From: Naegleria gruberi
Lineage: Eukaryota
Assembly: GCA_000004985.1 (NCBI GenBank)
Contig: GG738850.1
Reading direction: 5' to 3' (one strand)
DNA: 64,000 nucleotides
Both the position numbers and the translations under genes were made by a program. Of this stretch, positions 41,385 to 59,239 are shown piece after piece. Under the pieces are notes generated by a model that was not told the origin of the DNA, searched no databases, and was given only the letters and a program-made list of their open reading frames with translations. Every line of letters starts with the position of its first letter. The first letter of the stretch is position 1.

Positions 41385-43553
41385 ATGGAAAATCCAGAAC
41401 ATTTAACTATTAATCGAATTAATAATAATAATAATAGAGGCTCATTGATGATGATGAGGGTAAATTCATCCCCATTATCGCCCAATACTACTACTGGCTC
41501 AACAGCTTCAGCAACATCACCATCGACGACGTTGAACGATTCGAATTTATCTTTGGATGAACTTGATTCGTTAAGTAGTGCATCTTCGATGCATTCGAAT
41601 ACAATACTATTGAATCAATTTGTGGCAGCCGCTTCTAAAAAGACAAGAAAGAGTAGACCTACTAGTAATGACAGTATTGATGGGTTACCTCAAATTGGAA
41701 TTACTAATGAATTTGGAAATGTAAAGAGAGTAGCAAGTCCTCAGGAGGATGAAGAAAGTTTTGTGATGAGTGATTCTTCAAAGAGTGGAATGACCAGTAA
41801 TACATCGAGGTCTTCCTTCTCTTCAATGAATTCTTCATTCTTTGAGGAGTTGGAGGCACAATTTATGAATACATCGAGGTCAATACACTTGATTCATTTA
41901 TTATTGCATCCAGTGACAAAGGAATTATTCAGACAATACTGTATCAAGACGAGGGTTTGCGAGCTCTTTGATTGCCTGGAGGAAATTAGATTGTATTATG
42001 TGGCAATCGATACATTTAAAACACAATCTCATAAGAGAAAGATTGAGGAAATGAAACATTTACTCAACACGAATCAAAATTCTCCCAAGATCAGTGCCTC
42101 CTCTGAGAATATGTCTGTTTCTTCTAGTACTGATTCTCTTAAAAGGAAGAATAGAATGTCATTATCAGCGAGTGGTACCAAACTCTTTTCAAACAAACGT
42201 CAATCAGTAGCTCTCCTCTTTAATAATAATAGTAATTTGATGGAATTATTGCAGGAGAAAATTCATCAGGATAAGAATATGGATGAGGAAATTTCATTTA
42301 TGGGATTATTTTCACTTGGAACACAGGAAAAGGATCAAATTACAATAGAAGATATATCAAAAGAGGAGAGGGATTCCCTCAAGGAAAAGGCACAGAAAAT
42401 ATTCGACTCTTTTCTCTCTCCCAAATCAAATAGAGAAGTCAACATTGATAGCACACTCCGTTCTTCAATAGAGACCAACTTGAAAAATCTCGATTCAGAC
42501 CACTCTCTGTTTGAGAAACTTTATGAGGAATTACGTCTATTAATTCTAAGACAACTCAAAACTGACGTGTTGTTCAGGTTTGAAAAATCATCAGATTGGA
42601 CCACCTTCCTCTCTGATACTCATAATGTTTCAGTGGTGGAACAAGTTATGGATTATAGTAACTCTGTTTGGTCAGCCAATGCAGATTTTGGAGGATTTAA
42701 ACGAATGACCAAGAGGGATTGTGTCAGAGATTATGTCAAAAAGGAAGACTTTTCATTCATGAAACATGTTTTATTTGCACCTCTTCCACATTGGAAAAAT
42801 CTTACAAATACCAAAGCAACCAATTCTCCCTTCTCAACATCCTACTCGAAGGGAAAGTACTTCATTGATCAAGAATCAATTCGATTGAAATTTGGATGTC
42901 TCAAAGAAACAGCCACTCTTCCTTTCAGTGCTGAGGAAGTTTTTGCAGCCATTCACTCTAAACTCTTCCAATCCATCACAGATGACACTCTCAATGTCGA
43001 TGACTCGATATTTTGTCTCAAGAGCTTCTCTCACCGTGTAGTAGAAGGTATTCTACCAACTGACATAAGCAAGTTTTCTTTCAATTTGCCAATTCCACTT
43101 TCAAATCAAAGAGGTTGTTATCAAGCTCACTCTACAATTTATGAACCAGAGTCGAAACGATATTATTATTTCAGCAAACCAATTCTATTCAATGAAAATT
43201 ACTCTTTCGAAAAAGAGTCTGTACAGTGCTATTCATTCAATATGGTTTGTGTGGAAAAGGTTGATGACAGAAATTGTAAATACTACAGTGCTTTTATATC
43301 CAACTTTGGAGGAATTTTGAAACACTTCTCCACCAAGGTTTTTAAGAGAATTGCTTGGAAACGATCGAGTCAAACTCGAAAGTCTATGATAGAAAAGCTC
43401 ACTGAAAATCGAGATAGTTTATACAATAATACTAGAGATGGCTACGACACTTGTCTGGATAATCTCAAGAGGTATCAATCATGCTCCAATATTTCACTAG
43501 ATTTCCCAAAAACCTTTTCAGAGTTTCAAGAACGATTTTGCAAATACTATTAA
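41385..43553 (+). CDS. RGS (regulator of G-protein signalling) domain protein, 722 aa, Ser/Asn-rich N-terminus
   Basis: RGS domain is split by an insert: …LLHPVTKELFRQYCIKTRVCELFDCLEEIRLYY… and …KEKAQKIFDSFLSPKSNREVNIDSTLRSSIETNLKNLDSDHSLFEKLYEELRLLILRQLKTDVLFRFEKSSDW… (A..IY..FL…A..EVN+D…R..I…L..P…LF+…..+..LM..D.Y.RF..S). Confidence 0.6.
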   Translation: MENPEHLTINRINNNNNRGSLMMMRVNSSPLSPNTTTGSTASATSPSTTLNDSNLSLDELDSLSSASSMHSNTILLNQFVAAASKKTRKSRPTSNDSIDGLPQIGITNEFGNVKRVASPQEDEESFVMSDSSKSGMTSNTSRSSFSSMNSSFFEELEAQFMNTSRSIHLIHLLLHPVTKELFRQYCIKTRVCELFDCLEEIRLYYVAIDTFKTQSHKRKIEEMKHLLNTNQNSPKISASSENMSVSSSTDSLKRKNRMSLSASGTKLFSNKRQSVALLFNNNSNLMELLQEKIHQDKNMDEEISFMGLFSLGTQEKDQITIEDISKEERDSLKEKAQKIFDSFLSPKSNREVNIDSTLRSSIETNLKNLDSDHSLFEKLYEELRLLILRQLKTDVLFRFEKSSDWTTFLSDTHNVSVVEQVMDYSNSVWSANADFGGFKRMTKRDCVRDYVKKEDFSFMKHVLFAPLPHWKNLTNTKATNSPFSTSYSKGKYFIDQESIRLKFGCLKETATLPFSAEEVFAAIHSKLFQSITDDTLNVDDSIFCLKSFSHRVVEGILPTDISKFSFNLPIPLSNQRGCYQAHSTIYEPESKRYYYFSKPILFNENYSFEKESVQCYSFNMVCVEKVDDRNCKYYSAFISNFGGILKHFSTKVFKRIAWKRSSQTRKSMIEKLTENRDSLYNNTRDGYDTCLDNLKRYQSCSNISLDFPKTFSEFQERFCKYY

Positions 43554-45185: not shown

Positions 45186-46958
45186 ATGCTTAGCCAAGCA
45201 GCTTTGAAAAAAACAATGCAACTCAATTACCTTTTGTTTGGAAAGCAAAGTGGTGTTGACTTGCATCCACTCAAAGTTGTTACCAGCGATGGTTTCATTC
45301 AGTTTAATTCTGCATCACTTTCTAATAACAATGCTCATCATTCGAATAGACTATTCTTCTCTTCACTCAACAAAACCAGAATAATAGTTTCAATTCTAAT
45401 AGTTGTCATCCTCTTTATTCTTCTGAGACACTTCACCTCTCCAAAACATCAACAACATGCCATCTTTCTAGAGTTTGCCAAATTATTAACAAATCCTTCA
45501 AACTCAATTGACCAAACCAGAGAAGGAACCTACGCTTGGTACAGGTACCAGTTAGAAAAGAACAATAGATTGGGTAACACACTCTTCAAAGACCCAATCA
45601 TGACAAGATTAGGTTTCCAGTCAACCTCCACAACAAGTAAAGAGTTGTTTCACTACTTTCGAACATTTAAAACCAAAGAAAAGTGTTCGAAACAACATAC
45701 ATGTAAAATTTATGCAGACAAGACAGCTGGTGAGTTCTTAGAAGAAGGTGTACCATTGGATGCTGTTCTTCATCATTGTTTCTATGGAGAACCTTTCTTT
45801 TTGAATTCACTATTGGATGAAGCATCAATTGTGAAGGAATTTCAACATGAAATTGTGGATTCGAATGGAAAATTGAAACGAAACGAAATGTTTACTCATG
45901 CGCAGGATATTCTATTACATTCCCATAGGATGGACGAAAGCCAAGGCGAGAAAATGTGGAGAGGAATGAGAAGATTGTCACTTCTCATGTGCAGTGAAGC
46001 TGTCGTTGTGAATCAACTTGAAAAATTATCACAAAATCCAAATTCACTCCTTCCTCAAATGTCAATGGAAAAATTTGCCCAGTCAACTGCAGATATCTCA
46101 ATTTGTTTTCTTTCTACATGCTCTGTTTGGGTTAATTATCAATATAATTACATGTCTCTTTCAAATTCTGATAAATTTGGTACGAAACCCTTCTCCAAAA
46201 ATAAGGGAATTTGCTCCTTCATTTCCAATTGTGATAGAGGAGGAACAGAACTCAAACAACGTTATGAACTATTGCAATATCTTTCCAAGTACATTCCAGT
46301 GAAACAATTTGGCAAATGTGGCAAGAATTCACAAGAAGGAAAAGGCGGGAAACCTTTCGAATTGGAAAATAATTGTCGATTCTATTATGCAGCTGAGAAT
46401 TCCATTACAAAAGATTATGTCACTGAGAAATTCTTTGAAGGAATCAAAGCACTGGAAAATGGAGCTAGAATGATCATGTTGTATCGTGGGGCTCCAAATT
46501 TGAGAATTGATTTCGGATTTCCAAAGAGTTTGTTTATTGACCAATCGGATTTCCAATCTGTTGATGAATTGGGAAGATTTTTGAAGAAACTAAATGAAGA
46601 TGATCAAGCATTTGAGGAATATTTCAATAGAATGATTATTCAGGAAAGAAGCAAAGTCGATAGTGCACTTGCTGGTTTCGAATATCGTTTAGGTTCGAAT
46701 ATTCCATGTAGAATTTGTAAGATAATAGGACAAATGAAATTGGCAAGATATCTATTATTCAAAATTGGATTCCAATCAACAAATAGACCAAAAATTAATT
46801 TGAAAGAATGGAATAATTTCAAATATCAAAGATTTTCATCTTTTTCAGCCGAACGATTGAAAATTCTTGATGAAATTTATTATTATGGATACGAAATCTT
46901 TCATAAGGAGAATAACAATCAGAATGAGTTTGGTCGTGGTTGGAACTTTGATAATTAA
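45186..46958 (+). CDS. alpha-1,3-fucosyltransferase (glycosyltransferase family GT10), type II membrane protein, 590 aa
   Basis: N-terminal signal-anchor IIVSILIVVILFILL. C-terminal …CSFISNCDRGGTELKQRYELLQYLSKYIPVKQFGKCG…CRFYYAAENSITKDYVTEKFFEGIKALENGARMIMLYRG… matches the FucT motifs (FVVSNC…R…L…VDxYGxCG; YKFYLAFENS.C.DYITEKFW..L..G.VPVV.G). Confidence 0.7.
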   Translation: MLSQAALKKTMQLNYLLFGKQSGVDLHPLKVVTSDGFIQFNSASLSNNNAHHSNRLFFSSLNKTRIIVSILIVVILFILLRHFTSPKHQQHAIFLEFAKLLTNPSNSIDQTREGTYAWYRYQLEKNNRLGNTLFKDPIMTRLGFQSTSTTSKELFHYFRTFKTKEKCSKQHTCKIYADKTAGEFLEEGVPLDAVLHHCFYGEPFFLNSLLDEASIVKEFQHEIVDSNGKLKRNEMFTHAQDILLHSHRMDESQGEKMWRGMRRLSLLMCSEAVVVNQLEKLSQNPNSLLPQMSMEKFAQSTADISICFLSTCSVWVNYQYNYMSLSNSDKFGTKPFSKNKGICSFISNCDRGGTELKQRYELLQYLSKYIPVKQFGKCGKNSQEGKGGKPFELENNCRFYYAAENSITKDYVTEKFFEGIKALENGARMIMLYRGAPNLRIDFGFPKSLFIDQSDFQSVDELGRFLKKLNEDDQAFEEYFNRMIIQERSKVDSALAGFEYRLGSNIPCRICKIIGQMKLARYLLFKIGFQSTNRPKINLKEWNNFKYQRFSSFSAERLKILDEIYYYGYEIFHKENNNQNEFGRGWNFDN

Positions 46959-47004: not shown

Positions 47005-48714
47005 TCAGATTACGTTTGCTTTCGAAATTTGTGTTACACTTTCTAATCTTGTCAATGTTTGAAAATCAACTCGTCCCTCTCTTTCTCTCCACTCCTCCAA
47101 TACTATTCGAATCTTTTCATTCGACTGCCTCAATCGCTCTAAAACATCCTTCAAAGTGAGAAGAGTTTGAATTTGAACCTCCTCAAACAATTCATCAGAT
47201 AATTCATCATCACACATGGCACTATTAATTTTCAGCAAGATATCCTCCCTAATTGCATTCATATTTGGTAAATTCAATTCGTACACTCCTCCAGGTGTCA
47301 AGTAACAATTGATTATTTCCAGAGCCACTAATTTCCTCTTCTTAAAGTTATTGGCCTGTTTAAACTTGGAAATGTCCTTGTATACGAGAACTCCTTCAGG
47401 ACAGAATGATCTCCTCGAATATTCCAATAACATTTCACAAGTTTCATTCTTATTGAGAATGAACTCCAATTCATTACTAAATATTTCAACTTTTCTCAAA
47501 TCTTTTGCAATGGCATACAGAACTGGTAAGGTCACCGTTATGAAAATCTCAATCGTACAATACGAAACCATAACCAATCCTGATGGAAACACATGATCAA
47601 TCATTTTGAAGAAATCCATAGCCAAACACGTATAAATAATAGCTGCACTAATTTGAAGAACCATTGTAACAATAGTCTCCACTTTGATATAGTAGGTATC
47701 CTTTTCAGTTTTCAACAACCAAAAGAACGCAAACAGTTCAATTGCTATGTAAATCACATATAGAATGAGGATGGTTATGGTGGTTGGAAATAATGTGTAA
47801 CAACCTCTTAGGGAGATCATGGCAGCTTCTTGCATGATAAATCTTGCATTTGAAAAGAAAGATTCCTCAATCACTGCAAAAACAAACCAAATCAAAGTTT
47901 GAATTCCGTAAATGGTAATAAATATAAAAATTGACCACTTTTTTGAATGTACTATATAATGTGCCTTTCTAAGTAAGAGTTCTCTCTTGTCAATATTATT
48001 GTGTAAATCCAAATATTGTTTAAATTCCTTCAGTTTCTGTTGAGGTACTGAGATTAGTCCAGTTGGACTTGTAGGTGAACTTGTGAGCGAAGATGGACTA
48101 GTTGGAGATCGTGATAGACTTTCCACCGAAGGTATACTATTCAATTCTTCATTATTCCTATTCGATTCCTTACAATTTTCATCCAGTTCATTTTTTCTCA
48201 ATTCATTTTCCTTAAAATTTTGAGCTTTAAACCAATTTACTCTCCACTGTGTATAAACTCTCACATTTCTCAAAGTATTTGGTACTGTATAACTTGCTGG
48301 CATTACAAAAAACATTAAACTATAAACTAAACATGGAAACAAATCTCTGCCAATCATGTATCTCAACGAATAAACACTCACTATTGAAATACTCGATGCA
48401 ATTGTGAAATACATGCCTGCTGTTGATCGTGCAATGATGTGAGTCGAATTTCTCTTCCATATGAACCCAAAAATTGAAAGAGTCACTAAGCAAATGTAAA
48501 ATACGAAAGCAAACCCTGCAAGAATGGGAACCGAAATGGCATCCGGGCATTGGTTAGGAATGTTTCGTTGTCGAGGGACAAGAGTAAGGGAAAGTAACCA
48601 TGATTCGCATTCTGTAGCATTGCTGTTGTTTATAATTGTATTATTGGTTTGTTGCCTTGTAGAATTGATTTCGTATATTGTTTCTAATAATTTGCTTGCA
48701 TGTTGATTCATCAT
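47005..48714 (-). CDS. seven-transmembrane receptor with C-terminal RGS domain (7TM–RGS fusion), 569 aa
   Basis: About seven hydrophobic helices between residues 60 and 400. C-terminal …EMLLEYSRRSFCPEGVLVYKDISKFKQ…LVALEIINCYLTPGGVYELNLPNMNAIREDILLKINSAMCDDELSDELFEEVQIQTLLTLKDVLERL… fits the RGS fold consensus. The architecture is that of plant AtRGS1 and fungal class-VI GPCRs. Confidence 0.65.
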   Translation of the reverse strand: MMNQHASKLLETIYEINSTRQQTNNTIINNSNATECESWLLSLTLVPRQRNIPNQCPDAISVPILAGFAFVFYICLVTLSIFGFIWKRNSTHIIARSTAGMYFTIASSISIVSVYSLRYMIGRDLFPCLVYSLMFFVMPASYTVPNTLRNVRVYTQWRVNWFKAQNFKENELRKNELDENCKESNRNNEELNSIPSVESLSRSPTSPSSLTSSPTSPTGLISVPQQKLKEFKQYLDLHNNIDKRELLLRKAHYIVHSKKWSIFIFITIYGIQTLIWFVFAVIEESFFSNARFIMQEAAMISLRGCYTLFPTTITILILYVIYIAIELFAFFWLLKTEKDTYYIKVETIVTMVLQISAAIIYTCLAMDFFKMIDHVFPSGLVMVSYCTIEIFITVTLPVLYAIAKDLRKVEIFSNELEFILNKNETCEMLLEYSRRSFCPEGVLVYKDISKFKQANNFKKRKLVALEIINCYLTPGGVYELNLPNMNAIREDILLKINSAMCDDELSDELFEEVQIQTLLTLKDVLERLRQSNEKIRIVLEEWREREGRVDFQTLTRLESVTQISKANVI

Positions 48715-51445: not shown

Positions 51446-54055
51446 ATGTTTGGAAATGAAACCGTTTCGAGTATGGAGGACATGAATGGCAGCTCAACCA
51501 ACAAACCAACAGTCGCACAAGCATCATCATCAACTGATAAGAAGTTTTCAATTATTGTAACGAATGAGGAATCAAAAACCTCAACAGATGTGAATCTAAT
51601 GGTGGATCCGCCACTTTATGAAATTGCAAATGAGAATAACCATCTACATACTACCAATATTGTCAACTCGAGAAGACCCTCTAATAACAGCACTACCTCA
51701 TCAATGATACATCCCATTCATGCCAAACCACATCCAATCTATGGCAGAAGGGATACCATCTTTACCTTTGATGAGGTAATCACTCATTTGCCAGAAGGAA
51801 CTAATCAAACTAATCAGCAGCAGCAACTGCCAAGCATTGAAGTGAATGAAAAGCAAAATCCCACACCAGGCAGCAACAATAGTGGGAATTTATTATTTGG
51901 ATATTGTGGGAGAGGAGTGAGGATTAGTCATGTACTATTAATTCTGTTCATCATTCAAGGATTGGTTGGATTGGTTCCATCCCTCATTCTCATGTACACG
52001 AGTGGAAATAGTATTTTGGAAAGAGTTTCTAAATTCCAGGCACAACAAACTCAAACCTATGTGAATTTTGAGATTAGTCGAATTGTTAATACTTCACAAT
52101 TAGTCATTCAACATATCAGATTTGAGTTGGAGAATGGATTTACACTTTCAAACCTCACAGAAATGACTTTATTTGCAACTTATTTGAGGAATCTTTATGT
52201 GAATAGATCTCCACTCACGGCTGTTCAATTTGGCATGTTTATGGATAATTATGTTGGTACATTAGATATTCCTCCAATTTATCCACCAGTAATTGAATAT
52301 TTGAATGGGACTGGAGATTTATTGTATCACTATAGATTAGAAGAAGATAGCATCGAAAATCCCTTGCAAGATCGATACCTTTACAATGTTGAACCTTTCA
52401 GATTCAAACCATCCCATAGACCTTGGTATGTGCCATTTACTCTCCCAAATGCAACAGAAAGAAGATGGTCAGAAATTTATGTTTCCACATTTGGACAGCT
52501 CTCTATCAATACTGCAATGCCTGTCTTTGTAAAGGAGAATATTACAGCTGCAGTATTGTCAGGGAAACCAATTGATCAGTTTAATTTTCAAATATGTGAT
52601 TGTAACCACCCTGATCACTTGTATGGAGTATTTGGAGCTCTGTTCGCACTCAAAGGACTCAATTCATTCCTCAATGACACTTCAAGACCTTACAGCTTTA
52701 TTAGTTACAGTTTTATTATGCAAAGAAATGGATCTGTCATTGCATCGAGTAGACATAACACGACCACATCCAGTAGCATTCTAGAAGAAGAGGAAGAGAT
52801 TGATCAAGTTGCAGCCTATATTATCAATCTAGGTCTATTCAAAAATAGTACAATTCCAGGTGAATGCACTTTCAAATTTAGAGGAAAGAATGTAGCCATA
52901 ACACCAGTCTATGATAATTATGGACTTTCTTGGGCTATTGTCATTGGATCTAAGGATGCAGATATTTTAAAAGAGCTACTATCGAGTGGAATGACTTCAG
53001 TTGTGGTTTTTATTGTCATTTTAGTTGCAGGATCCTTAGCATTATTTGTGACTGTACAGTTGTTTGCTCAGCCATTAAATAACGTGCACAGAAAGCTTTC
53101 TAAAATTTTGAGTGACAAGAATCTATCAAAGGATTTGTCAAATCCAAAAATTACAACTGCTGGACTGATTTTCTTTGATATTGGAGAAATGGAAAATGGA
53201 ATTAATTCGCTCAAGAGAGGAGTTTCAGCATTTTCTAAATTTATTTCACCAACAATAATGAAAAAAGTTATTAGAAATGAACATTATTTGGATGTTGGAA
53301 TGATAATTCAAAACATGTCAATTTTGGTTTTAAGTATTAGTAATTTCTCTCAATTAGCAGAACAAACTGATATTTCTACATTTGTTTCATTAATGACTGA
53401 TTATTTTGGAAGTTTGACAAAGGTGATGGAAGATCATCGTGGATTAATTGACATGATTACAGGCGAAAGATTGCAAGTAGTGTGGAATGACTCATCCATG
53501 CCTGTTGAAGAACATGAAGTGAGAGCATGTAAAGCTGCAATGGAAGCTATAGAAGTTGTTGAAGAATTGAATAACACCTGGATAAAGGAGAAACATTTGG
53601 AGATGGATTTTTCAGTGTGTATGAGTATTTCGAGTGGAAATATGATGTATGGTAGCATTGGAAGTGAGCATCGATTGAATTTCACAGCCATGGGAGATGA
53701 TGTCAATATAGCAGTAAAGTTGGCAAATCTCAATCCACATTATGAGGCCGATATTCTCATTACTGAAAATACCTATCAACATGTAAAGAATGAATTTGTT
53801 TGTTACTTTGTGGACTATATAATATTGAATGGAAAGGAAAGTCCAACCATGATCTACAGTTTGGAATGTGAAAGAAGTGTTGCTAGTGACCTTCAGGTAA
53901 AAGTAGCAACAGATTTGGAATTGGCACGTAACTATTGGTTCCAAAACAATTATAGAGCCATGTACGATATTTGTGAAAGATTGAGTCTCATTTCTCATTC
54001 AAAAATAATTAATAATTTATTGTTAAAAGCAAAAAGAAAAATTACACATAATTAA
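51446..54055 (+). CDS. receptor-type class III adenylyl/guanylyl cyclase-like protein (869 aa): TM1, about 340-aa extracytoplasmic sensor domain, TM2, cyclase-homology domain with non-canonical metal-binding residues
   Basis: TM helices ISHVLLILFIIQGLVGLVPSLILMY and MTSVVVFIVILVAGSLALFVTV. C-terminal …MSILVLSISNFSQLAEQTDISTFVSLMTDYFGSLTKVMEDHRGLIDMITGERLQVVWN…CMSISSGNMMYGSIGSEHRLNFTAMGDDVNIAVKLAN… aligns with VTILFSDIVGFT…KTIGDAYM…G.VN.A.R of class III cyclases. The two metal-binding Asp positions are Ser (LSISNF) and Glu (ITGERL). Confidence 0.7.
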   Translation: MFGNETVSSMEDMNGSSTNKPTVAQASSSTDKKFSIIVTNEESKTSTDVNLMVDPPLYEIANENNHLHTTNIVNSRRPSNNSTTSSMIHPIHAKPHPIYGRRDTIFTFDEVITHLPEGTNQTNQQQQLPSIEVNEKQNPTPGSNNSGNLLFGYCGRGVRISHVLLILFIIQGLVGLVPSLILMYTSGNSILERVSKFQAQQTQTYVNFEISRIVNTSQLVIQHIRFELENGFTLSNLTEMTLFATYLRNLYVNRSPLTAVQFGMFMDNYVGTLDIPPIYPPVIEYLNGTGDLLYHYRLEEDSIENPLQDRYLYNVEPFRFKPSHRPWYVPFTLPNATERRWSEIYVSTFGQLSINTAMPVFVKENITAAVLSGKPIDQFNFQICDCNHPDHLYGVFGALFALKGLNSFLNDTSRPYSFISYSFIMQRNGSVIASSRHNTTTSSSILEEEEEIDQVAAYIINLGLFKNSTIPGECTFKFRGKNVAITPVYDNYGLSWAIVIGSKDADILKELLSSGMTSVVVFIVILVAGSLALFVTVQLFAQPLNNVHRKLSKILSDKNLSKDLSNPKITTAGLIFFDIGEMENGINSLKRGVSAFSKFISPTIMKKVIRNEHYLDVGMIIQNMSILVLSISNFSQLAEQTDISTFVSLMTDYFGSLTKVMEDHRGLIDMITGERLQVVWNDSSMPVEEHEVRACKAAMEAIEVVEELNNTWIKEKHLEMDFSVCMSISSGNMMYGSIGSEHRLNFTAMGDDVNIAVKLANLNPHYEADILITENTYQHVKNEFVCYFVDYIILNGKESPTMIYSLECERSVASDLQVKVATDLELARNYWFQNNYRAMYDICERLSLISHSKIINNLLLKAKRKITHN

Positions 54056-55086
54056 ACCTTATTAGATTTGGAAAGTAGTGTTTGATTTTCATGAGATTCT
54101 TCCTCAGAACCATACGATAACTCAGAGTCATCTGTGTGATGGTTATTGTTACTGGTACTGTATTGAGAAGATACAGGACGACGAGCCATTTGAATATCCA
54201 TCTTTCCAATTCTATTTCTTTCTTGTTCAAATTTCTTCTCAGCACGATATGCATTCACATTATCAACAATGGCCTTGATGAGCAGGGAAATCAACATGAT
54301 AGCAATAATGGGTCCAAACATTGTAACCATAGCAACTGGAACATTAGGATTATGAATGGTTGTCTTGCAATATTGGAAAATCATATTGGTTGCAGTGAAT
54401 CCAGGAGTAAATGTTTGCATACTTTTCAGTTCAGCACCATTCTTGAATAGAATTGTTGTTTCAGGACCTTCGGAACTTGATTTAGCTGATCCACCTCCAA
54501 AAGTTTTGACATTTGAAAGTAAACTTGTTGGATAAATGACTGAAACTGAAATGTCCTTAATTACTTGAGCAGGATCATTGCCTACAGACCATAGGAATTT
54601 TGTTGAATTTTTAAACGAGAAGAAAGGTCCTCTAATCGAATATTTGTATTCGATTGTAAAAATTTGCATAGTATCAACTTGTTTTGAAAAATCTATCTGA
54701 ATGTAGTGATTCTTGCTGTTTGTTGTCGATTTATACACGTCAACATCAACTATTTTGTTACTTGTTGTTGAGACTATTATTGCCGAAACTTGTTCCACAT
54801 TATTTCCAAATGGCATACCCACAGGCAGATTTCTAGTAATTGTCTTGGTTTTACTATCAAAAATATAAGAAACTCTTTCTGTTACTTTCGCAACACACAA
54901 CAAATCACTATTCAATTTAATTTCGGATTCAAATTTTGTTATTGAATAATCTTGTTGTGTAGAATCTTGTACGAAAAGTAAAATAATTACTAGTATAATA
55001 CAAAGAGAGAGAAAACCTCTTGTTCTTCCAATGATCCGATCATCATATTTTGAAAAATGTCGTCCCCTGATGATGATTGTAGACAT
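54052..55086 (-). CDS. hypothetical membrane glycoprotein, 344 aa (N-terminal signal anchor, C-terminal TM); stop codon overlaps the stop of the convergent cyclase-like gene on TTAA (54052–54055)
   Basis: ATG-initiated ORF. Hydrophobic segments FLSLCIILVIILLF and VAMVTMFGPIIAIMLISLLI. Many NxS/T sites. I recognised no family. Confidence 0.45.
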   Translation of the reverse strand: MSTIIIRGRHFSKYDDRIIGRTRGFLSLCIILVIILLFVQDSTQQDYSITKFESEIKLNSDLLCVAKVTERVSYIFDSKTKTITRNLPVGMPFGNNVEQVSAIIVSTTSNKIVDVDVYKSTTNSKNHYIQIDFSKQVDTMQIFTIEYKYSIRGPFFSFKNSTKFLWSVGNDPAQVIKDISVSVIYPTSLLSNVKTFGGGSAKSSSEGPETTILFKNGAELKSMQTFTPGFTATNMIFQYCKTTIHNPNVPVAMVTMFGPIIAIMLISLLIKAIVDNVNAYRAEKKFEQERNRIGKMDIQMARRPVSSQYSTSNNNHHTDDSELSYGSEEESHENQTLLSKSNKV

Positions 55087-56300: not shown

Positions 56301-56810
56301 AACAATTTGGTACACTACTAGGAAACTAATTTATTAAAACGACAATTATTTGTTGTAGTTTGATGCAAGATCACATTAGGTTTTTTAGCAATTACAATAA
56401 TTACAATGTATTGTGTCCAAGAATTCTAATGGACAACCACGGTTGATTTTTACTAACACTTAAAGATCTAGATTACTCCCTCTGTCCAGAGCTGCCTGCA
56501 TAGCACATTCACTGTCAGTTTTCAATTGTTGATGGTATTTATTGTTCGAATATGGCAGGGCATTCAAAAATTGTAATTTGACGATTCGAAGGGTCCTTTA
56601 GAAAGTCTTATCCATCAAGAAAAAAACGAGAAAAGATCTGTCACAAGGTTTTGCTTATCAACCATATCACAAGCAGTACAGTCGAAATTTTCACAACTGT
56701 AGGTTGGCCAACCATGATTTTTTGTTGTTAATAATATTTGATGGTTTCTTTCGGATATAATTTGACAATGTGGATATTGACAATCTCTCTTCATGGATTA
56801 ACAGTTGGAA

Positions 56811-58289
56811 ATGATGAGAACACCATCATCTCCACCGACCAACAGCAACTCACCACAACAAGCTAGTATTCTTCTCAACAACAATATTTCTACAAATGTT
56901 TCCTCTTCGAATAAGAAAGTTACTATTTCATCATCAGCAGAGCCAATAGCAATGAACCAATCACAAGTTAATCTTGCCAATCCGAGTGAAAGTGGCAAGT
57001 CAGGAAGTTCGTTTAGTCAAAGTAAGATTACATTTCGTACATGTTGTGGTGTAATTGAGCTGACTTCTATGAAGTTGGCTTGTTTATTTGGAATGTTAGT
57101 CACTGTTATTGGATTATTAGTTTTGGCTGGTGTTGCAGTTGCAGCCTTTATTACTGCAACTTCCAAGTCGACTGAAATTTTAATTTCTGTTGGCAGAGTT
57201 ACTTCACAATTCGAAGGTGCTAATGCCATAATTGTCAGATATGTTTTCGCAGGAACAGCTGAAACATATTCAACAACTTTGGCTACTTATAAGAAATCCT
57301 ATCTTGCTCTTCAACAAAATTTGACAAACATTCTGGCAAATCTTAATGATCCTCAAATAGAGACAATTTTCAATTCCACAGCCATAACTGCTGTAAATAA
57401 TGTGGATTCCCTAAACACTATGATGATGTATATGGCTGGTGGAGTAACTAACACTCAGCGATCTGATGCAATTGAAAAACTCAATAGTGAAGTTTACAAA
57501 AATTATTTTACTACTTTCCGTTCAGGTTTGGATGAATTAGTGACCTATGTGCAAGAAAAGGAACAGGTAAAAGATCAGAATATTTTGGCAATCACATTGG
57601 TGCAGCTCATTATTATTGTACTTTCATTATTTGTCATTTTGCCTATCATTATATTTGTGTTTACATATGCCATTAATCGTGACTCGTTATATTTGGAAAA
57701 GATTCGTCGTGCTAATGCAGTCATGTTGATGGATACAATTGAGGATGAAGGTTTGAGAGCTCTTTTCAAGGTTCATTGTGAAAAGGAAAAGTCGAGTGAA
57801 AATTTCCTACTCCTTGAAAAGATTCAATATTATCGTTCTTTGTGTGAACGTTCTATAGATTTACAAATGAGATTATTTGGTCAGGATGCCGCTATAAGTG
57901 ATGCTCTGAGTGATATTTCGGCAGATTCATCTCACTCCTCAAAGAAAAAGAAGGAATCTCCATTAGAAAGAGAATATAACGAATTGGAGGCAAAGAAGTA
58001 TGAAGTTGCTTTTGAAATATTTACTGAATTTTTGGAAGTAACTGGTGATATGGCTGTCAATGTTTCAAAGGTTCTTACAGATTTTGTGAAGGATAAACTT
58101 GACAAGTTCAATGACAAACAAATTGATACCCTGCCAGAGGACATGTTTGATATTTTAGGAAAAGAAACATGTCTTGTCATGATGGATACTCACCATAGAT
58201 TCAAACAATCTCTTGCATTCCAACGTGAAATGAAGATTGACAAGATAAAGGTAGACCAGATAAAAAAGAAAAGGAATATAGAATTTTAA
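56811..58289 (+). CDS. two-TM membrane protein with extracytoplasmic helical sensor-like domain and C-terminal RGS domain (about 492 aa)
   Basis: TM1 LACLFGMLVTVIGLLVLAGVAVAAFI and TM2 ILAITLVQLIIIVLSLFVILPIIIFVF. RGS region …LRALFKVHCEKEKSSENFLLLEKIQYYRSL…AFEIFTEFLEVTGDMAVNVSKVLTDFVKDKL…LPEDMFDILGKETCLVMMDTHHRFKQS…. The track start at 56805 is TTG; the first ATG is at 56811. Confidence 0.6.
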   Translation: MMRTPSSPPTNSNSPQQASILLNNNISTNVSSSNKKVTISSSAEPIAMNQSQVNLANPSESGKSGSSFSQSKITFRTCCGVIELTSMKLACLFGMLVTVIGLLVLAGVAVAAFITATSKSTEILISVGRVTSQFEGANAIIVRYVFAGTAETYSTTLATYKKSYLALQQNLTNILANLNDPQIETIFNSTAITAVNNVDSLNTMMMYMAGGVTNTQRSDAIEKLNSEVYKNYFTTFRSGLDELVTYVQEKEQVKDQNILAITLVQLIIIVLSLFVILPIIIFVFTYAINRDSLYLEKIRRANAVMLMDTIEDEGLRALFKVHCEKEKSSENFLLLEKIQYYRSLCERSIDLQMRLFGQDAAISDALSDISADSSHSSKKKKESPLEREYNELEAKKYEVAFEIFTEFLEVTGDMAVNVSKVLTDFVKDKLDKFNDKQIDTLPEDMFDILGKETCLVMMDTHHRFKQSLAFQREMKIDKIKVDQIKKKRNIEF

Positions 58290-58348: not shown

Positions 58349-59239
58349 TTAATTAATTCTAGTTTCATTATGAAGTTCTCTCAGTGCATCCCACCAATTT
58401 GTAAATGGTGTATCCATCTTGTCAGCATTGAATTGAGGAATATTATCCTTGATTATTTTTTGCATATGATTAAACATGATTTGATTTCCAAGAGGAGACA
58501 TGTGAAGCCCATCACTGAAAGGATGTCCAGTTGTCCACTCATGCATATCAGTCCACAAATCACACAAGTATACATTTCCTCTTTGGTCATTATTATTTCC
58601 ACTTGTAACAATTTCTCTAACAGCTTGAGCATACATGGCAGTGTGCTTGTTATCTCTGAAACCTCCTTGAGGTCCAGAAGTTTGATTCCATTGAGTTGCA
58701 TTCATTGGTGGTGGAGTGGTGAGAATAATGTCAATTCTTGATGACACCATTTTCTTCTTCATAATTGAAATCATTTCCTTAATATTCTCAGTGTATCTCT
58801 CCACAGGAACGTGTTGTTGTGTTGGAGAGTCTGCGAAACAAGCATCATTAGCTCCCATAGTAAAGATGACCAAAACTGGTTGATTCCAACTCTGGGTTGG
58901 TTGTAAAAATGTCTGTTCAAAATCATTCTCCATAATATTCACCAAAAGGTCAGTATTCCATCCAGAAAATCCACGATTAATAATATCTACCATATTAATA
59001 TACCATCCCAAGAATAAATGTTGAAAACCGTTCGGTAATGATGAAAATTGAGTAATCGAATCACCAACAATATACAACATTGGACGATCCCTAACAAAAT
59101 GATAATCCTTTGATGTTACTATTGTTGATGGTTTGACCTTTCCGATGTGAATCGCACCAATGCATGGTTGAAAATTCATCATCATGATGATCATCAACAG
59201 TGCTGTTATTACTAACATAAAACTCTTCAGTTGTTGCAT
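58349..59239 (-). CDS. secreted SGNH/GDSL-family hydrolase (IAH1-like esterase), 296 aa
   Basis: Signal peptide MQQLKSFMLVITALLMIIMMMNF. Block I LYIVGDSITQF, block III GANDAC, block V DGLHMSPLGN (DxxH) are present. Confidence 0.7.
   Translation of the reverse strand: MQQLKSFMLVITALLMIIMMMNFQPCIGAIHIGKVKPSTIVTSKDYHFVRDRPMLYIVGDSITQFSSLPNGFQHLFLGWYINMVDIINRGFSGWNTDLLVNIMENDFEQTFLQPTQSWNQPVLVIFTMGANDACFADSPTQQHVPVERYTENIKEMISIMKKKMVSSRIDIILTTPPPMNATQWNQTSGPQGGFRDNKHTAMYAQAVREIVTSGNNNDQRGNVYLCDLWTDMHEWTTGHPFSDGLHMSPLGNQIMFNHMQKIIKDNIPQFNADKMDTPFTNWWDALRELHNETRIN

What the first reader, a model, noticed from the sequence alone, without database searches (positions are those of the whole stretch)
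51446..54055. ACG-like receptor cyclase whose two catalytic metal-binding aspartates are replaced (D→S and D→E)
The domain order is TM, large extracytoplasmic domain, TM, then class III cyclase-homology domain. This is the order of the osmosensing adenylyl cyclase ACG of social amoebae. In the cyclase-homology alignment the first metal-binding Asp (VTILF-D-IVGFT) is Ser (LVL-S-ISNFS). The second (KTIG-D-AYM) aligns with Glu (MITG-E-RL). Canonical two-metal catalysis would be impaired. This could be a pseudo-cyclase acting as a sensor or regulatory subunit, a heterodimer partner, or an enzyme with altered metal use.
Basis: partly seen in the sequence, partly recalled or inferred. Interest (0 to 1): 0.55.

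Follow-up and report, generated by a model that had tools for sequence, protein, structure and literature searches.

The report
Naegleria dCache receptor with dead cyclase domain
This Naegleria gruberi gene encodes a membrane receptor of bacterial type whose cyclase domain keeps its fold but has lost most residues needed to make cAMP or cGMP. It is very probably a non-catalytic "pseudo-cyclase" sensor, and its closest amoeboflagellate relatives are mostly degenerate in similar ways.

Summary
ORF 51446-54055 (+) encodes 869 aa and is identical to N. gruberi NAEGRDRAFT_63463. Its order is disordered tail, TM, ectodomain, TM, linker, class III cyclase-homology domain (CHD), short helical C-terminus.

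Four independent alignments put Ser630 and Glu674 at the two metal-Asp positions.
- Substrate Lys is Met670 and transition-state Arg is Lys758.
- Several other near-invariant positions are changed, including F628V, R725C, G727S and N737S.
- Only Thr747 and Asn754 of the six canonical residues remain.

The "ACG-like" label is topological only. The ectodomain is a divergent dCache_1, not CHASE. The nearest relatives are bacterial-type class IIIb dCache-HAMP-CHD-TPR cyclases.

The N. gruberi paralog NAEGRDRAFT_53695 shares Ser, Met and Lys. The two proteins are more alike in the CHD (73%) than in the ectodomain (56%), so this is not a decaying relic. In the closest heterolobosean clade, about 20 of 23 representatives are degenerate in various patterns.

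Best reading: a conserved receptor pseudo-cyclase, inactive as a homodimer. It probably modulates active paralogs or signals non-catalytically; that output is inferred. No partner CHD lies in the window. Moderately interesting; a new member of a known kind.

The parts
51446..54055 (+). Whole single-exon ORF, 869 aa plus stop; NAEGRDRAFT_63463 / XP_002681426.1 / D2V3R6
51446..51931 (+). Cytoplasmic N-terminal tail (aa 1-162). Predicted disordered (pLDDT <50 for aa 1-149). Holds two RRx[S/T] motifs (RRPS 76-79, RRDT 101-104), each in an island conserved with the paralog.
51932..52000 (+). TM1 (aa ~163-185)
   Evidence: hydropathy; helix 160-229 in the AF2 model
52001..52999 (+). Extracytoplasmic divergent dCache_1 domain (aa 186-518) with 10 N-glycosylation sequons. 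Keeps R325-P-W327-Y328, but the residue aligned with PctA Asp173 is Leu.
53000..53068 (+). TM2 (aa ~519-541)
53069..53227 (+). HAMP-like two-helix linker. The Pfam HAMP of relatives P0087 and P0047 maps to aa ~535-594. Pfam does not detect HAMP in the query itself.
53309..53860 (+). Class III (IIIb-type) cyclase-homology domain, aa 622-805. Fold intact: pLDDT ~95; TM 0.90 and rmsd 2.6 A to CyaB 3r5g.
53333..53335 (+). Codon AGT = Ser630 at metal-binding Asp 1
53453..53455 (+). Codon ATG = Met670 at the substrate-specifying Lys
53465..53467 (+). Codon GAA = Glu674 at metal-binding Asp 2
53618..53620 (+). Codon TGT = Cys725 at the Arg of the R-I-G-I strand (94% Arg in canonical relatives)
53717..53719 (+). 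Codon AAG = Lys758 at the transition-state Arg of the NxxxR motif. Asn754 is kept (53705-53707) and Thr747 is kept (53684-53686).
53861..54052 (+). C-terminal three-helix TPR-like segment (aa 806-869). Aligns with the Pfam TPR_14 region of bacterial-type relative P0087.

Best explanation
The gene encodes a receptor of bacterial-type architecture: dCache_1 ectodomain, TM, HAMP-like linker, class IIIb cyclase-homology domain, TPR-like tail. Its cyclase domain has become a pseudoenzyme.

Shown:
- The CHD fold is intact.
- On the 'C1 side' of the pocket, both metal Asp and the strand Arg are lost (Ser630, Glu674, Cys725).
- On the 'C2 side', the pocket is eroded (Lys to Met670, Arg to Lys758). Only Thr747 and Asn754 remain.
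- The same derived residues (Ser, Met, Lys, and 16 of 28 derived states at conserved positions) are kept in the N. gruberi paralog.
- The CHD and linker are the best-conserved parts of the two proteins.

Inferred:
- A homodimer cannot carry out two-metal cyclisation of ATP or GTP (my estimate: about 0.85).
- A ligand binds the dCache domain. It is probably not an amino acid, because the amino-group Asp of the AA motif is Leu.
- The signal passes through TM2 and the HAMP-like linker to the CHD dimer.
- The output is non-catalytic. Most likely the protein forms CHD heterodimers with catalytically competent paralogs. Naegleria has roughly 80-100 cyclases. Such a heterodimer would have one dead site and one crippled site, so the query would act as a ligand-controlled attenuator or allosteric subunit (about 0.35).
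- Otherwise it acts as a scaffold through the remodelled pocket or the TPR tail (about 0.3).
For: - Residue assignments are consistent in four alignments.
- 28 of 63 positions conserved at 75% or more in 108 canonical relatives are changed. These include F628, D630, K670, D674, G727 and R758, all 100% conserved.
- The fold is intact.
- P0001 versus P0002 identity: CHD 73%, linker 79%, ectodomain 56%, N-tail 52%. The paralog signature is SMDTNK against SMETNK in the query.
- An environmental fragment, P0027 (58% identical), also has T-N-K.
- The ORF is an intact 2.6 kb in a 34% GC genome.
- The closest clade is mostly degenerate across N. gruberi, N. fowleri, N. lovaniensis and Willaertia magna.
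- The ectodomain is dCache_1.
- Precedent for non-catalytic CHD subunits regulating a single active site: tmAC, sGC and the chytrid NeoR/RGC pairs. NeoR also has Lys in place of the NxxxR Arg and is inactive alone (PMC12264004).
Against: - No biochemical, expression or interaction data exist.
- No partner CHD lies in the 64-kb window.
- No heterodimer could be modelled here.
- dN/dS could not be computed because the paralog DNA was not retrievable. Purifying selection is therefore inferred from protein-level domain contrasts only.
- From memory: some atypical mycobacterial cyclases (Rv0386, Rv1900c) stay active with non-canonical substrate-specifying residues. Met670 alone would therefore not prove inactivity; the argument rests on Ser630 plus the combined losses.
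- Glu can coordinate metals.
Confidence: 0.62

Rival explanations
1. It is a complementary half of an obligate heterodimeric cyclase, like C2 of mammalian tmAC or one sGC subunit. It would supply the substrate and transition-state side (Thr747, Asn754, Lys758). A partner would supply the two metal Asp, giving one fully active site.
For: - Thr747 and Asn754 are kept, and Arg to Lys at 758 is conservative.
- Relatives with clean C2-like signatures exist in the same clade: GKGTNR in P0019, P0021 and P0022, and SKGTNR in P0025. Division of labour may therefore occur in this family.
- Heterodimeric class III cyclases are well known (PMC12264004).
Against: - The C2-side Lys is Met670. Lys764, aligned with a 91%-conserved Lys, is Pro.
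- The NxxxR Arg is Lys. In NeoR the same motif is T...K, that domain is inactive alone, and restoring N...R did not rescue it.
- The site formed with any partner would lack base recognition and the transition-state Arg.
- No partner is linked in the window.
Confidence: 0.15
2. It is an enzyme with residual or altered chemistry. Examples: single-metal or Glu-coordinated catalysis, a different nucleotide substrate, or a different reaction.
For: - Glu674 retains a carboxylate; Asn754 and Thr747 remain.
- The derived pocket residues are conserved between the paralogs, which could reflect selection for a new ligand or reaction.
Against: - Ser630 removes one of the two bridging carboxylates.
- Phe628, Arg725, Gly727, Asn737 and Arg758 are also changed.
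- I know of no class III cyclase active with this combination of changes (from memory).
Confidence: 0.08
3. It is a recently inactivated, functionally irrelevant relic of the huge Naegleria cyclase expansion, drifting neutrally.
For: - Naegleria has 80-100+ cyclase genes (PMC9928731; PMC9283941), so redundancy is high.
- Glu674 is unique to this gene and one base from Asp.
Against: - The 869-codon ORF is intact.
- The AF2 fold is high-confidence in all domains.
- The derived states are shared with a paralog that is only 58-62% identical overall. The CHD is more conserved than the sensor domain. The loss is therefore old, and the domain has been maintained since.
Confidence: 0.1

Closest known systems
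Bacterial-type class IIIb dCache_1-HAMP-CHD(-TPR) adenylate cyclases. Solved catalytic domains: P. aeruginosa CyaB 3r5g and Spirulina CyaC 1wc0.
   Same: - Same domain order.
- The ectodomain profile matches dCache_1 ligand-binding domains.
- Relatives carry Pfam dCache_1, HAMP, Guanylate_cyc and TPR.
- Thr at the substrate position, typical of class IIIb.
- The CHD superposes on CyaB at TM 0.90.
- A Cache-containing 'bacterial-type adenylate cyclase' was already noted in Naegleria (PMC4822843).
   Different: - Four of six canonical catalytic residues are replaced, plus further pocket residues.
- Pfam does not detect dCache or HAMP in the query itself.
- The host is eukaryotic, with N-glycosylation sequons and a long disordered N-tail.
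Dictyostelium adenylyl cyclase G (ACG)
   Same: TM / extracellular sensor / TM / single cytosolic class III CHD topology, in an amoeboid protist.
   Different: - ACG has a CHASE ectodomain and is confined to Dictyostelia (PMC4399386). The query has dCache_1.
- ACG is an active, osmotically stimulated enzyme. The query lacks the catalytic set.
- No specific sequence affinity appeared: the best hits are heterolobosean and bacterial-type dCache cyclases.
Non-catalytic CHD subunits of heterodimeric class III cyclases: tmAC C1/C2, sGC alpha/beta, chytrid NeoR with RGC1/2.
   Same: - A CHD that is inactive alone, with an altered NxxxR motif. NeoR has T...K; the query has N...K.
- A degenerate pseudo-symmetric site that can serve as a regulatory site.
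   Different: - Those subunits are degenerate on one side only and complement the partner.
- The query is degenerate on both sides: no metal Asp, no substrate Lys, no transition-state Arg.
- No partner is identified. NeoR genes are clustered with their partners, whereas the window holds no second CHD.
Fully degenerate CHDs in other proteins, for example mycobacterial LuxR-type or orphan CHD proteins lacking catalytic residues (from memory; the Actinobacteria survey PMC2447327 was retrieved for the term 'inactive cyclase domain' but was not read).
   Same: The class III fold is retained while the catalytic residues are lost.
   Different: Different architecture (cytosolic regulators versus a dCache membrane receptor) and a different kingdom.

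Membership tests
Class III nucleotidyl cyclase homology domain (PF00211) | Sequence and fold of the CHD | tested here: met
   Pfam E 3.4e-9. Canonical-relative HMM E 3.4e-59. Foldseek to CyaB TM 0.90, rmsd 2.6 A.
Catalytically competent class III cyclase | Six canonical residues: two metal Asp, substrate Lys and Asp/Thr, transition-state Asn and Arg | tested here: not met
   The query reads S-M-E-T-N-K against D-K-D-T-N-R in 108 of 150 homologs. Only Thr and Asn are kept.
Class IIIb subclass | Thr or Ser instead of Asp at the second substrate-specifying position (definition from memory); closest to CyaB, CyaC and PAC-type domains | tested here: met
   Thr747. The best PDB sequence and fold hits are CyaB, CyaC and OaPAC.
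ACG (Dictyostelium adenylyl cyclase G) family | CHASE ectodomain flanked by TM segments | tested here: not met
   The ectodomain is dCache_1 by profile and by fold. There is no CHASE hit. The ACG definition is from PMC4399386.
ACG (Dictyostelium adenylyl cyclase G) family | TM / ectodomain / TM / single CHD topology | tested here: met
ACG (Dictyostelium adenylyl cyclase G) family | Osmotically stimulated cAMP synthesis | not testable with these tools
   A biochemical property. The catalytic residue set argues against any cAMP synthesis.
dCache_1 sensor domain | Double PAS-like module on a long N-terminal helix; profile similarity to dCache_1 ligand-binding domains | tested here: met
   Family profile A4 against PDB: 7k5n 1.7e-14, PctA 3.3e-14. 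All 50 listed Foldseek PDB hits of the ectodomain model are sensor ectodomains, nearly all described as dCache/Cache ligand-binding domains, probability 1.00. Pfam dCache_1 is detected in relatives but not in the query alone.
dCache_1AA (amino-acid-binding subtype) | AA_motif Y121, R126, W128, (Y129), Y144, D173 in PctA numbering | tested here: not met
   R325, W327, Y328 and the Y144-equivalent Tyr are kept. The first Tyr is Phe and the D173-equivalent is Leu (GVFGALFAL), from the alignments. D173A and D173N abolish binding (PMC8915833).
HAMP linker | Two amphipathic helices with a connector after TM2; Pfam PF00672 | tested here: inconclusive
   No Pfam hit in the query. The HAMP of P0087 and P0047 maps to aa 535-594. 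AF2 shows helices 515-556 and 577-597.
Complementary heterodimeric class III cyclase subunit (C1/C2-like) | One side of the site intact (metal side, or substrate/transition-state side), to be completed by a partner | tested here: not met
   Both sides are degenerate: S630/E674/C725 and M670/K758/P764.
Complementary heterodimeric class III cyclase subunit (C1/C2-like) | An identified partner subunit | not testable with these tools
   No second CHD in the window. The rest of the genome was not searchable as DNA. No multimer prediction was available.

The most novel reading that the evidence does not exclude
Heterolobosea (Naegleria, Willaertia) may have turned a horizontally acquired bacterial dCache-HAMP-cyclase into a lineage-specific family of receptor pseudo-cyclases. 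About 20 of 23 representatives in the closest clade are degenerate. These proteins would signal without making cyclic nucleotide. For example, they could form combinatorial CHD heterodimers in which ligand-bound dead subunits gate or silence active cyclases. That would be a cyclase counterpart of pseudokinase receptors such as HER3. The query and its paralog would be the doubly degenerate extreme of this network.
Probability: 0.3. Interest if true: 0.65.

Novelty: new member of a known kind. Interest (0 to 1): 0.4.

Why it matters
Naegleria species carry 80-100+ cyclase genes, which are usually counted as enzymes. If a whole receptor clade is non-catalytic, those counts overstate cAMP/cGMP-producing capacity. 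They would also hide a layer of regulation by dead subunits.

The protein also offers a clean test case for three questions:
- What a class III cyclase fold does once both half-sites are lost.
- How dCache receptors were re-used in a eukaryote.
- Whether ligand-controlled pseudo-cyclases attenuate active paralogs. This is relevant to sensing and differentiation in the genus that includes the pathogen N. fowleri.

Tried and rejected
- The word-index homolog search, on the whole protein and on aa 156-869, returned only the query, one paralog and a few bacterial cyclases. It evidently missed the 34-40% identical heterolobosean relatives that the exhaustive HMMER search found. I did not use it to judge the presence or absence of orthologs.
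- The P0002 DNA needed for dN/dS is not on record.
- Alignment A2 was too large for structure prediction, and A3 was too large for a member-wise Pfam scan. Smaller sets were used instead.
- The Foldseek search of the full-length model returned only cyclase domains, so a separate ectodomain model was made.
- The Naegleria genome paper (PMID 20211133) is not held.
- Literature searches for pseudo-cyclases or degenerate cyclases in Naegleria found nothing specific.
- Considered and rejected: CHASE/ACG homology, a shifted alignment restoring Asp, sequencing error (AGT is two bases from an Asp codon and is shared with the paralog), a disrupted pseudogene, and an amino-acid-sensing dCache_1AA.
Full report
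**1. What is there**

The ORF 51446..54055 (+) is a single uninterrupted 869-codon frame in sequence of about 34% GC. Its product is 100% identical, end to end, to the NCBI 'predicted protein' of Naegleria gruberi: XP_002681426.1, NAEGRDRAFT_63463, UniProt D2V3R6, on a 707,703-bp scaffold. The organism is therefore a heterolobosean amoeboflagellate, not a social amoeba.

Hydropathy gives two TM segments at about aa 163-185 and 519-541. Ten N-glycosylation sequons lie in the roughly 330-aa stretch between them. Pfam detects only Guanylate_cyc (PF00211) at aa 622-802, E 3.4e-9.

An AlphaFold2 model built on 78 homologs has mean pLDDT 79.7. Its features are:
- a disordered tail (aa 1-149, pLDDT <50);
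- a confidently folded ectodomain (about 90);
- a two-helix linker;
- a CHD (about 95);
- three C-terminal helices.

**2. The residue correspondences**

Four alignments agree and are ungapped around each site:
- phmmer against the solved CyaB (3r5g) and Spirulina CyaC (1wc0/1wc1);
- MAFFT with bacterial cyclases;
- MAFFT of the 150 best homologs;
- an HMM built only from 108 canonical relatives, with the query left out. It aligns the query at E 3.4e-59 with maximal posterior probability at every site.

| Canonical residue | Query | Codon (window) |
|---|---|---|
| Metal Asp 1 | Ser630 | AGT 53333-53335 |
| Substrate Lys | Met670 | ATG 53453-53455 |
| Metal Asp 2 | Glu674 | GAA 53465-53467 |
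| Substrate Thr | Thr747 (kept) | ACA 53684-53686 |
| Transition-state Asn | Asn754 (kept) | AAT 53705-53707 |
| Transition-state Arg | Lys758 | AAG 53717-53719 |

The damage is wider than reported. Of 63 positions conserved at 75% or more in the 108 canonical relatives, 28 differ in the query. These include:
- Phe628 to Val, Gly727 to Ser (both 100% conserved);
- Asn737 to Ser (97%);
- Met677 to Gln (96%);
- Arg725 to Cys (94%). This is the Arg of the R-I-G-I strand. By my recollection it is the triphosphate-binding Arg equivalent to Arg484 of mammalian C1;
- Glu760 to Ala (94%);
- Lys764 to Pro (91%).

The fold itself is intact. The CHD superposes on CyaB with TM 0.90 and rmsd 2.6 A, and on CyaC with TM 0.87.

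**3. The sensor domain is dCache_1, not CHASE**

The exhaustive HMMER search found 37,450 homologs. Many cover the query from about aa 158 to about 860. Relatives in that set carry Pfam dCache_1, MCP-like PDC, HAMP, Guanylate_cyc and TPR.

A profile of 19 ectodomains (A4) hits solved dCache_1 ligand-binding domains:
- 7k5n, 1.7e-14;
- PctA, 3.3e-14;
- PctB, Mlp24/37, alpha2delta-1 and CACHD1.

All 50 listed Foldseek PDB hits of a separate ectodomain model (pLDDT 78, pTM 0.78) are sensor ectodomains, nearly all described as dCache/Cache ligand-binding domains, with probability 1.00.

Mapping through the alignment gives these positions in the query:
- HAMP of relatives: aa 535-594;
- their TPR: aa 825-858.

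ACG proteins are defined by a CHASE domain and are restricted to Dictyostelia (PMC4399386). 'ACG-like' is therefore a resemblance of topology only.

[quoted passage not shown] The present family seems to be a much larger, divergent set that Pfam does not recognise.

The amino-acid-binding AA_motif (PMC8915833) is only half kept:
- R325-P-W327-Y328 and the following Tyr are present;
- the residue aligned with PctA Asp173 is Leu (GVFGALFAL);
- the bacterial-type relatives in A4 keep Asp.

**4. Family context**

The closest protein is an N. gruberi paralog, NAEGRDRAFT_53695 (58-62% identical). Its signature is S-M-D-T-N-K. It shares Ser, Met and Lys with the query, and 16 of the query's 28 derived states at conserved positions.

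Identity between the two paralogs, by domain:

| Domain | Identity |
|---|---|
| Linker | 79% |
| CHD | 73% |
| C-terminal helices | 67% |
| Ectodomain | 56% |
| N-terminal tail | 52% |

The catalytic residues were therefore lost before the duplication. The dead domain has since been kept more strictly than the sensor. That argues against a decaying relic.

An environmental fragment (P0027, 58% identical) also has T-N-K.

In a neighbour-joining tree of the CHD plus flanks, the query sits in a clade of 23 representatives. Only P0012 and P0013 (Willaertia) are fully canonical. The named members come from N. gruberi, N. fowleri, N. lovaniensis and Willaertia magna. The rest show varied losses:
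- GKGTNR: P0019 (N. gruberi), P0021 (N. lovaniensis), P0022 (N. fowleri);
- SKGTNR: P0025;
- DKASEK: P0018 (N. fowleri);
- EKNSDN: P0015 (N. gruberi);
- EQDTPA: P0035, in the same 90%-identity cluster as N. gruberi NAEGRDRAFT_73850;
- SEETDK, SHESTN, KQETNK: Willaertia.

The sister clade of 34 is almost entirely canonical. Some individual signatures may be affected by gene-model errors; P0011 and P0020 have local indels.

**5. Mechanism**

In class III cyclases each active site is built across the dimer (established knowledge; restated in PMC12264004). One protomer gives the two metal Asp. The other gives the base-recognising pair and the Asn/Arg.

The query lacks everything on the metal side: Ser630, Glu674, Cys725. 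On the other side it keeps only Thr747 and Asn754, with Arg conservatively replaced by Lys.
- A homodimer has no site with a metal-binding pair. I consider it inactive (about 0.85).
- A heterodimer with a canonical paralog would have one dead site and one site lacking the Lys and the transition-state Arg. The query is therefore more plausibly an attenuating or allosteric subunit than a complementary half.
- NeoR of chytrids is a useful precedent. Its NxxxR motif is T...K, it is inactive alone, and it forms heterodimers with one active and one regulatory site. NeoR, however, keeps its metal Asp.

How the output is produced is inference. Candidates are heterodimerisation, scaffolding through the remodelled pocket or the TPR-like tail, and regulation through the N-terminal tail. 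No second CHD lies in the 64-kb window.

**6. Verdict**

- pseudo-cyclase: yes;
- ACG relative: no;
- complementary partner or altered metal use: unlikely.

Degenerate CHDs are a known kind. This is an uncharacterised eukaryotic receptor example that is degenerate on both half-sites, conserved in a paralog pair, and embedded in a largely degenerate heterolobosean clade. I found no description of this in the held literature.

Interest is moderate (0.4). The family-level pattern is the more interesting lead.

Noticed in passing
window 51671-51682 (RRPS, aa 76-79) and 51746-51757 (RRDT, aa 101-104): The disordered N-terminal tail has two RRx[S/T] motifs, the consensus for PKA/AGC-type kinases. 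Each sits in a short island conserved with paralog P0002 (RRPS, RRNT), while the rest of the tail diverges. This could be feedback phosphorylation of a pseudo-cyclase by a cyclic-nucleotide-dependent kinase. That is speculative.
   Followed up: partly
window 41385-43553 (+), 47005-48714 (-), 56805-58289 (+): Three ORFs with RGS domains lie within about 10 kb on either side of the gene: Pfam E 2e-10, 2e-6 and 1e-4, the last just below the gathering score. Naegleria has a large seven-transmembrane RGS family (PMC9283941). I did not test whether this local concentration of signalling genes means anything.
   Followed up: no
window 54052-55086 (-): A convergent 344-aa ORF has a DUF2207 N-terminal domain (a predicted membrane protein family, E 5e-12). 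Its 3' end overlaps the cyclase-homolog stop codon by 4 bases.
   Followed up: no
window 52400-52420 and about 52700 (ectodomain aa 320-328 and the GVFGALFAL strand): The dCache amino-acid motif is half kept: R-P-W-Y and the following Tyr are present, but the Asp173 equivalent is Leu. In the closest heterolobosean relatives it is Gln or Ser, whereas the bacterial-type relatives keep Asp. The clade has probably changed ligand class.
   Followed up: partly
Related proteins P0014-P0038 (N. gruberi, N. fowleri, N. lovaniensis, Willaertia magna): About 20 of 23 representatives of the closest clade have non-canonical catalytic signatures in several distinct patterns. These include clean 'C2-like' GKGTNR forms found in three Naegleria species. 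This is a family-wide phenomenon rather than a single odd gene. Gene-model errors were not excluded for every member.
   Followed up: partly
P0002 (NAEGRDRAFT_53695) aligned against query aa ~320-370: The paralog's protein model lacks 49 ectodomain residues, including the RPWY motif. This could be a real deletion or a mis-called intron. Its DNA was not retrievable.
   Followed up: no
window 45186-46958 (+) and 58349-59239 (-): Neighbouring ORFs encode a GT10 fucosyltransferase domain (E 2e-27) and a GDSL lipase/acylhydrolase (E 1e-15). These are ordinary genes with no evident link to the finding.
   Followed up: no
query aa 806-869 (window 53861-54052) and relatives: The C-terminal TPR-like helices carry a motif shared across the heterolobosean clade: A-[ST]-D-[LI]-Q-x-K...D-L-E, seen in P0001, P0012, P0014, P0017 and P0021. 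It is conserved whether or not the CHD is canonical, so it may be a clade-specific interaction surface.
   Followed up: no
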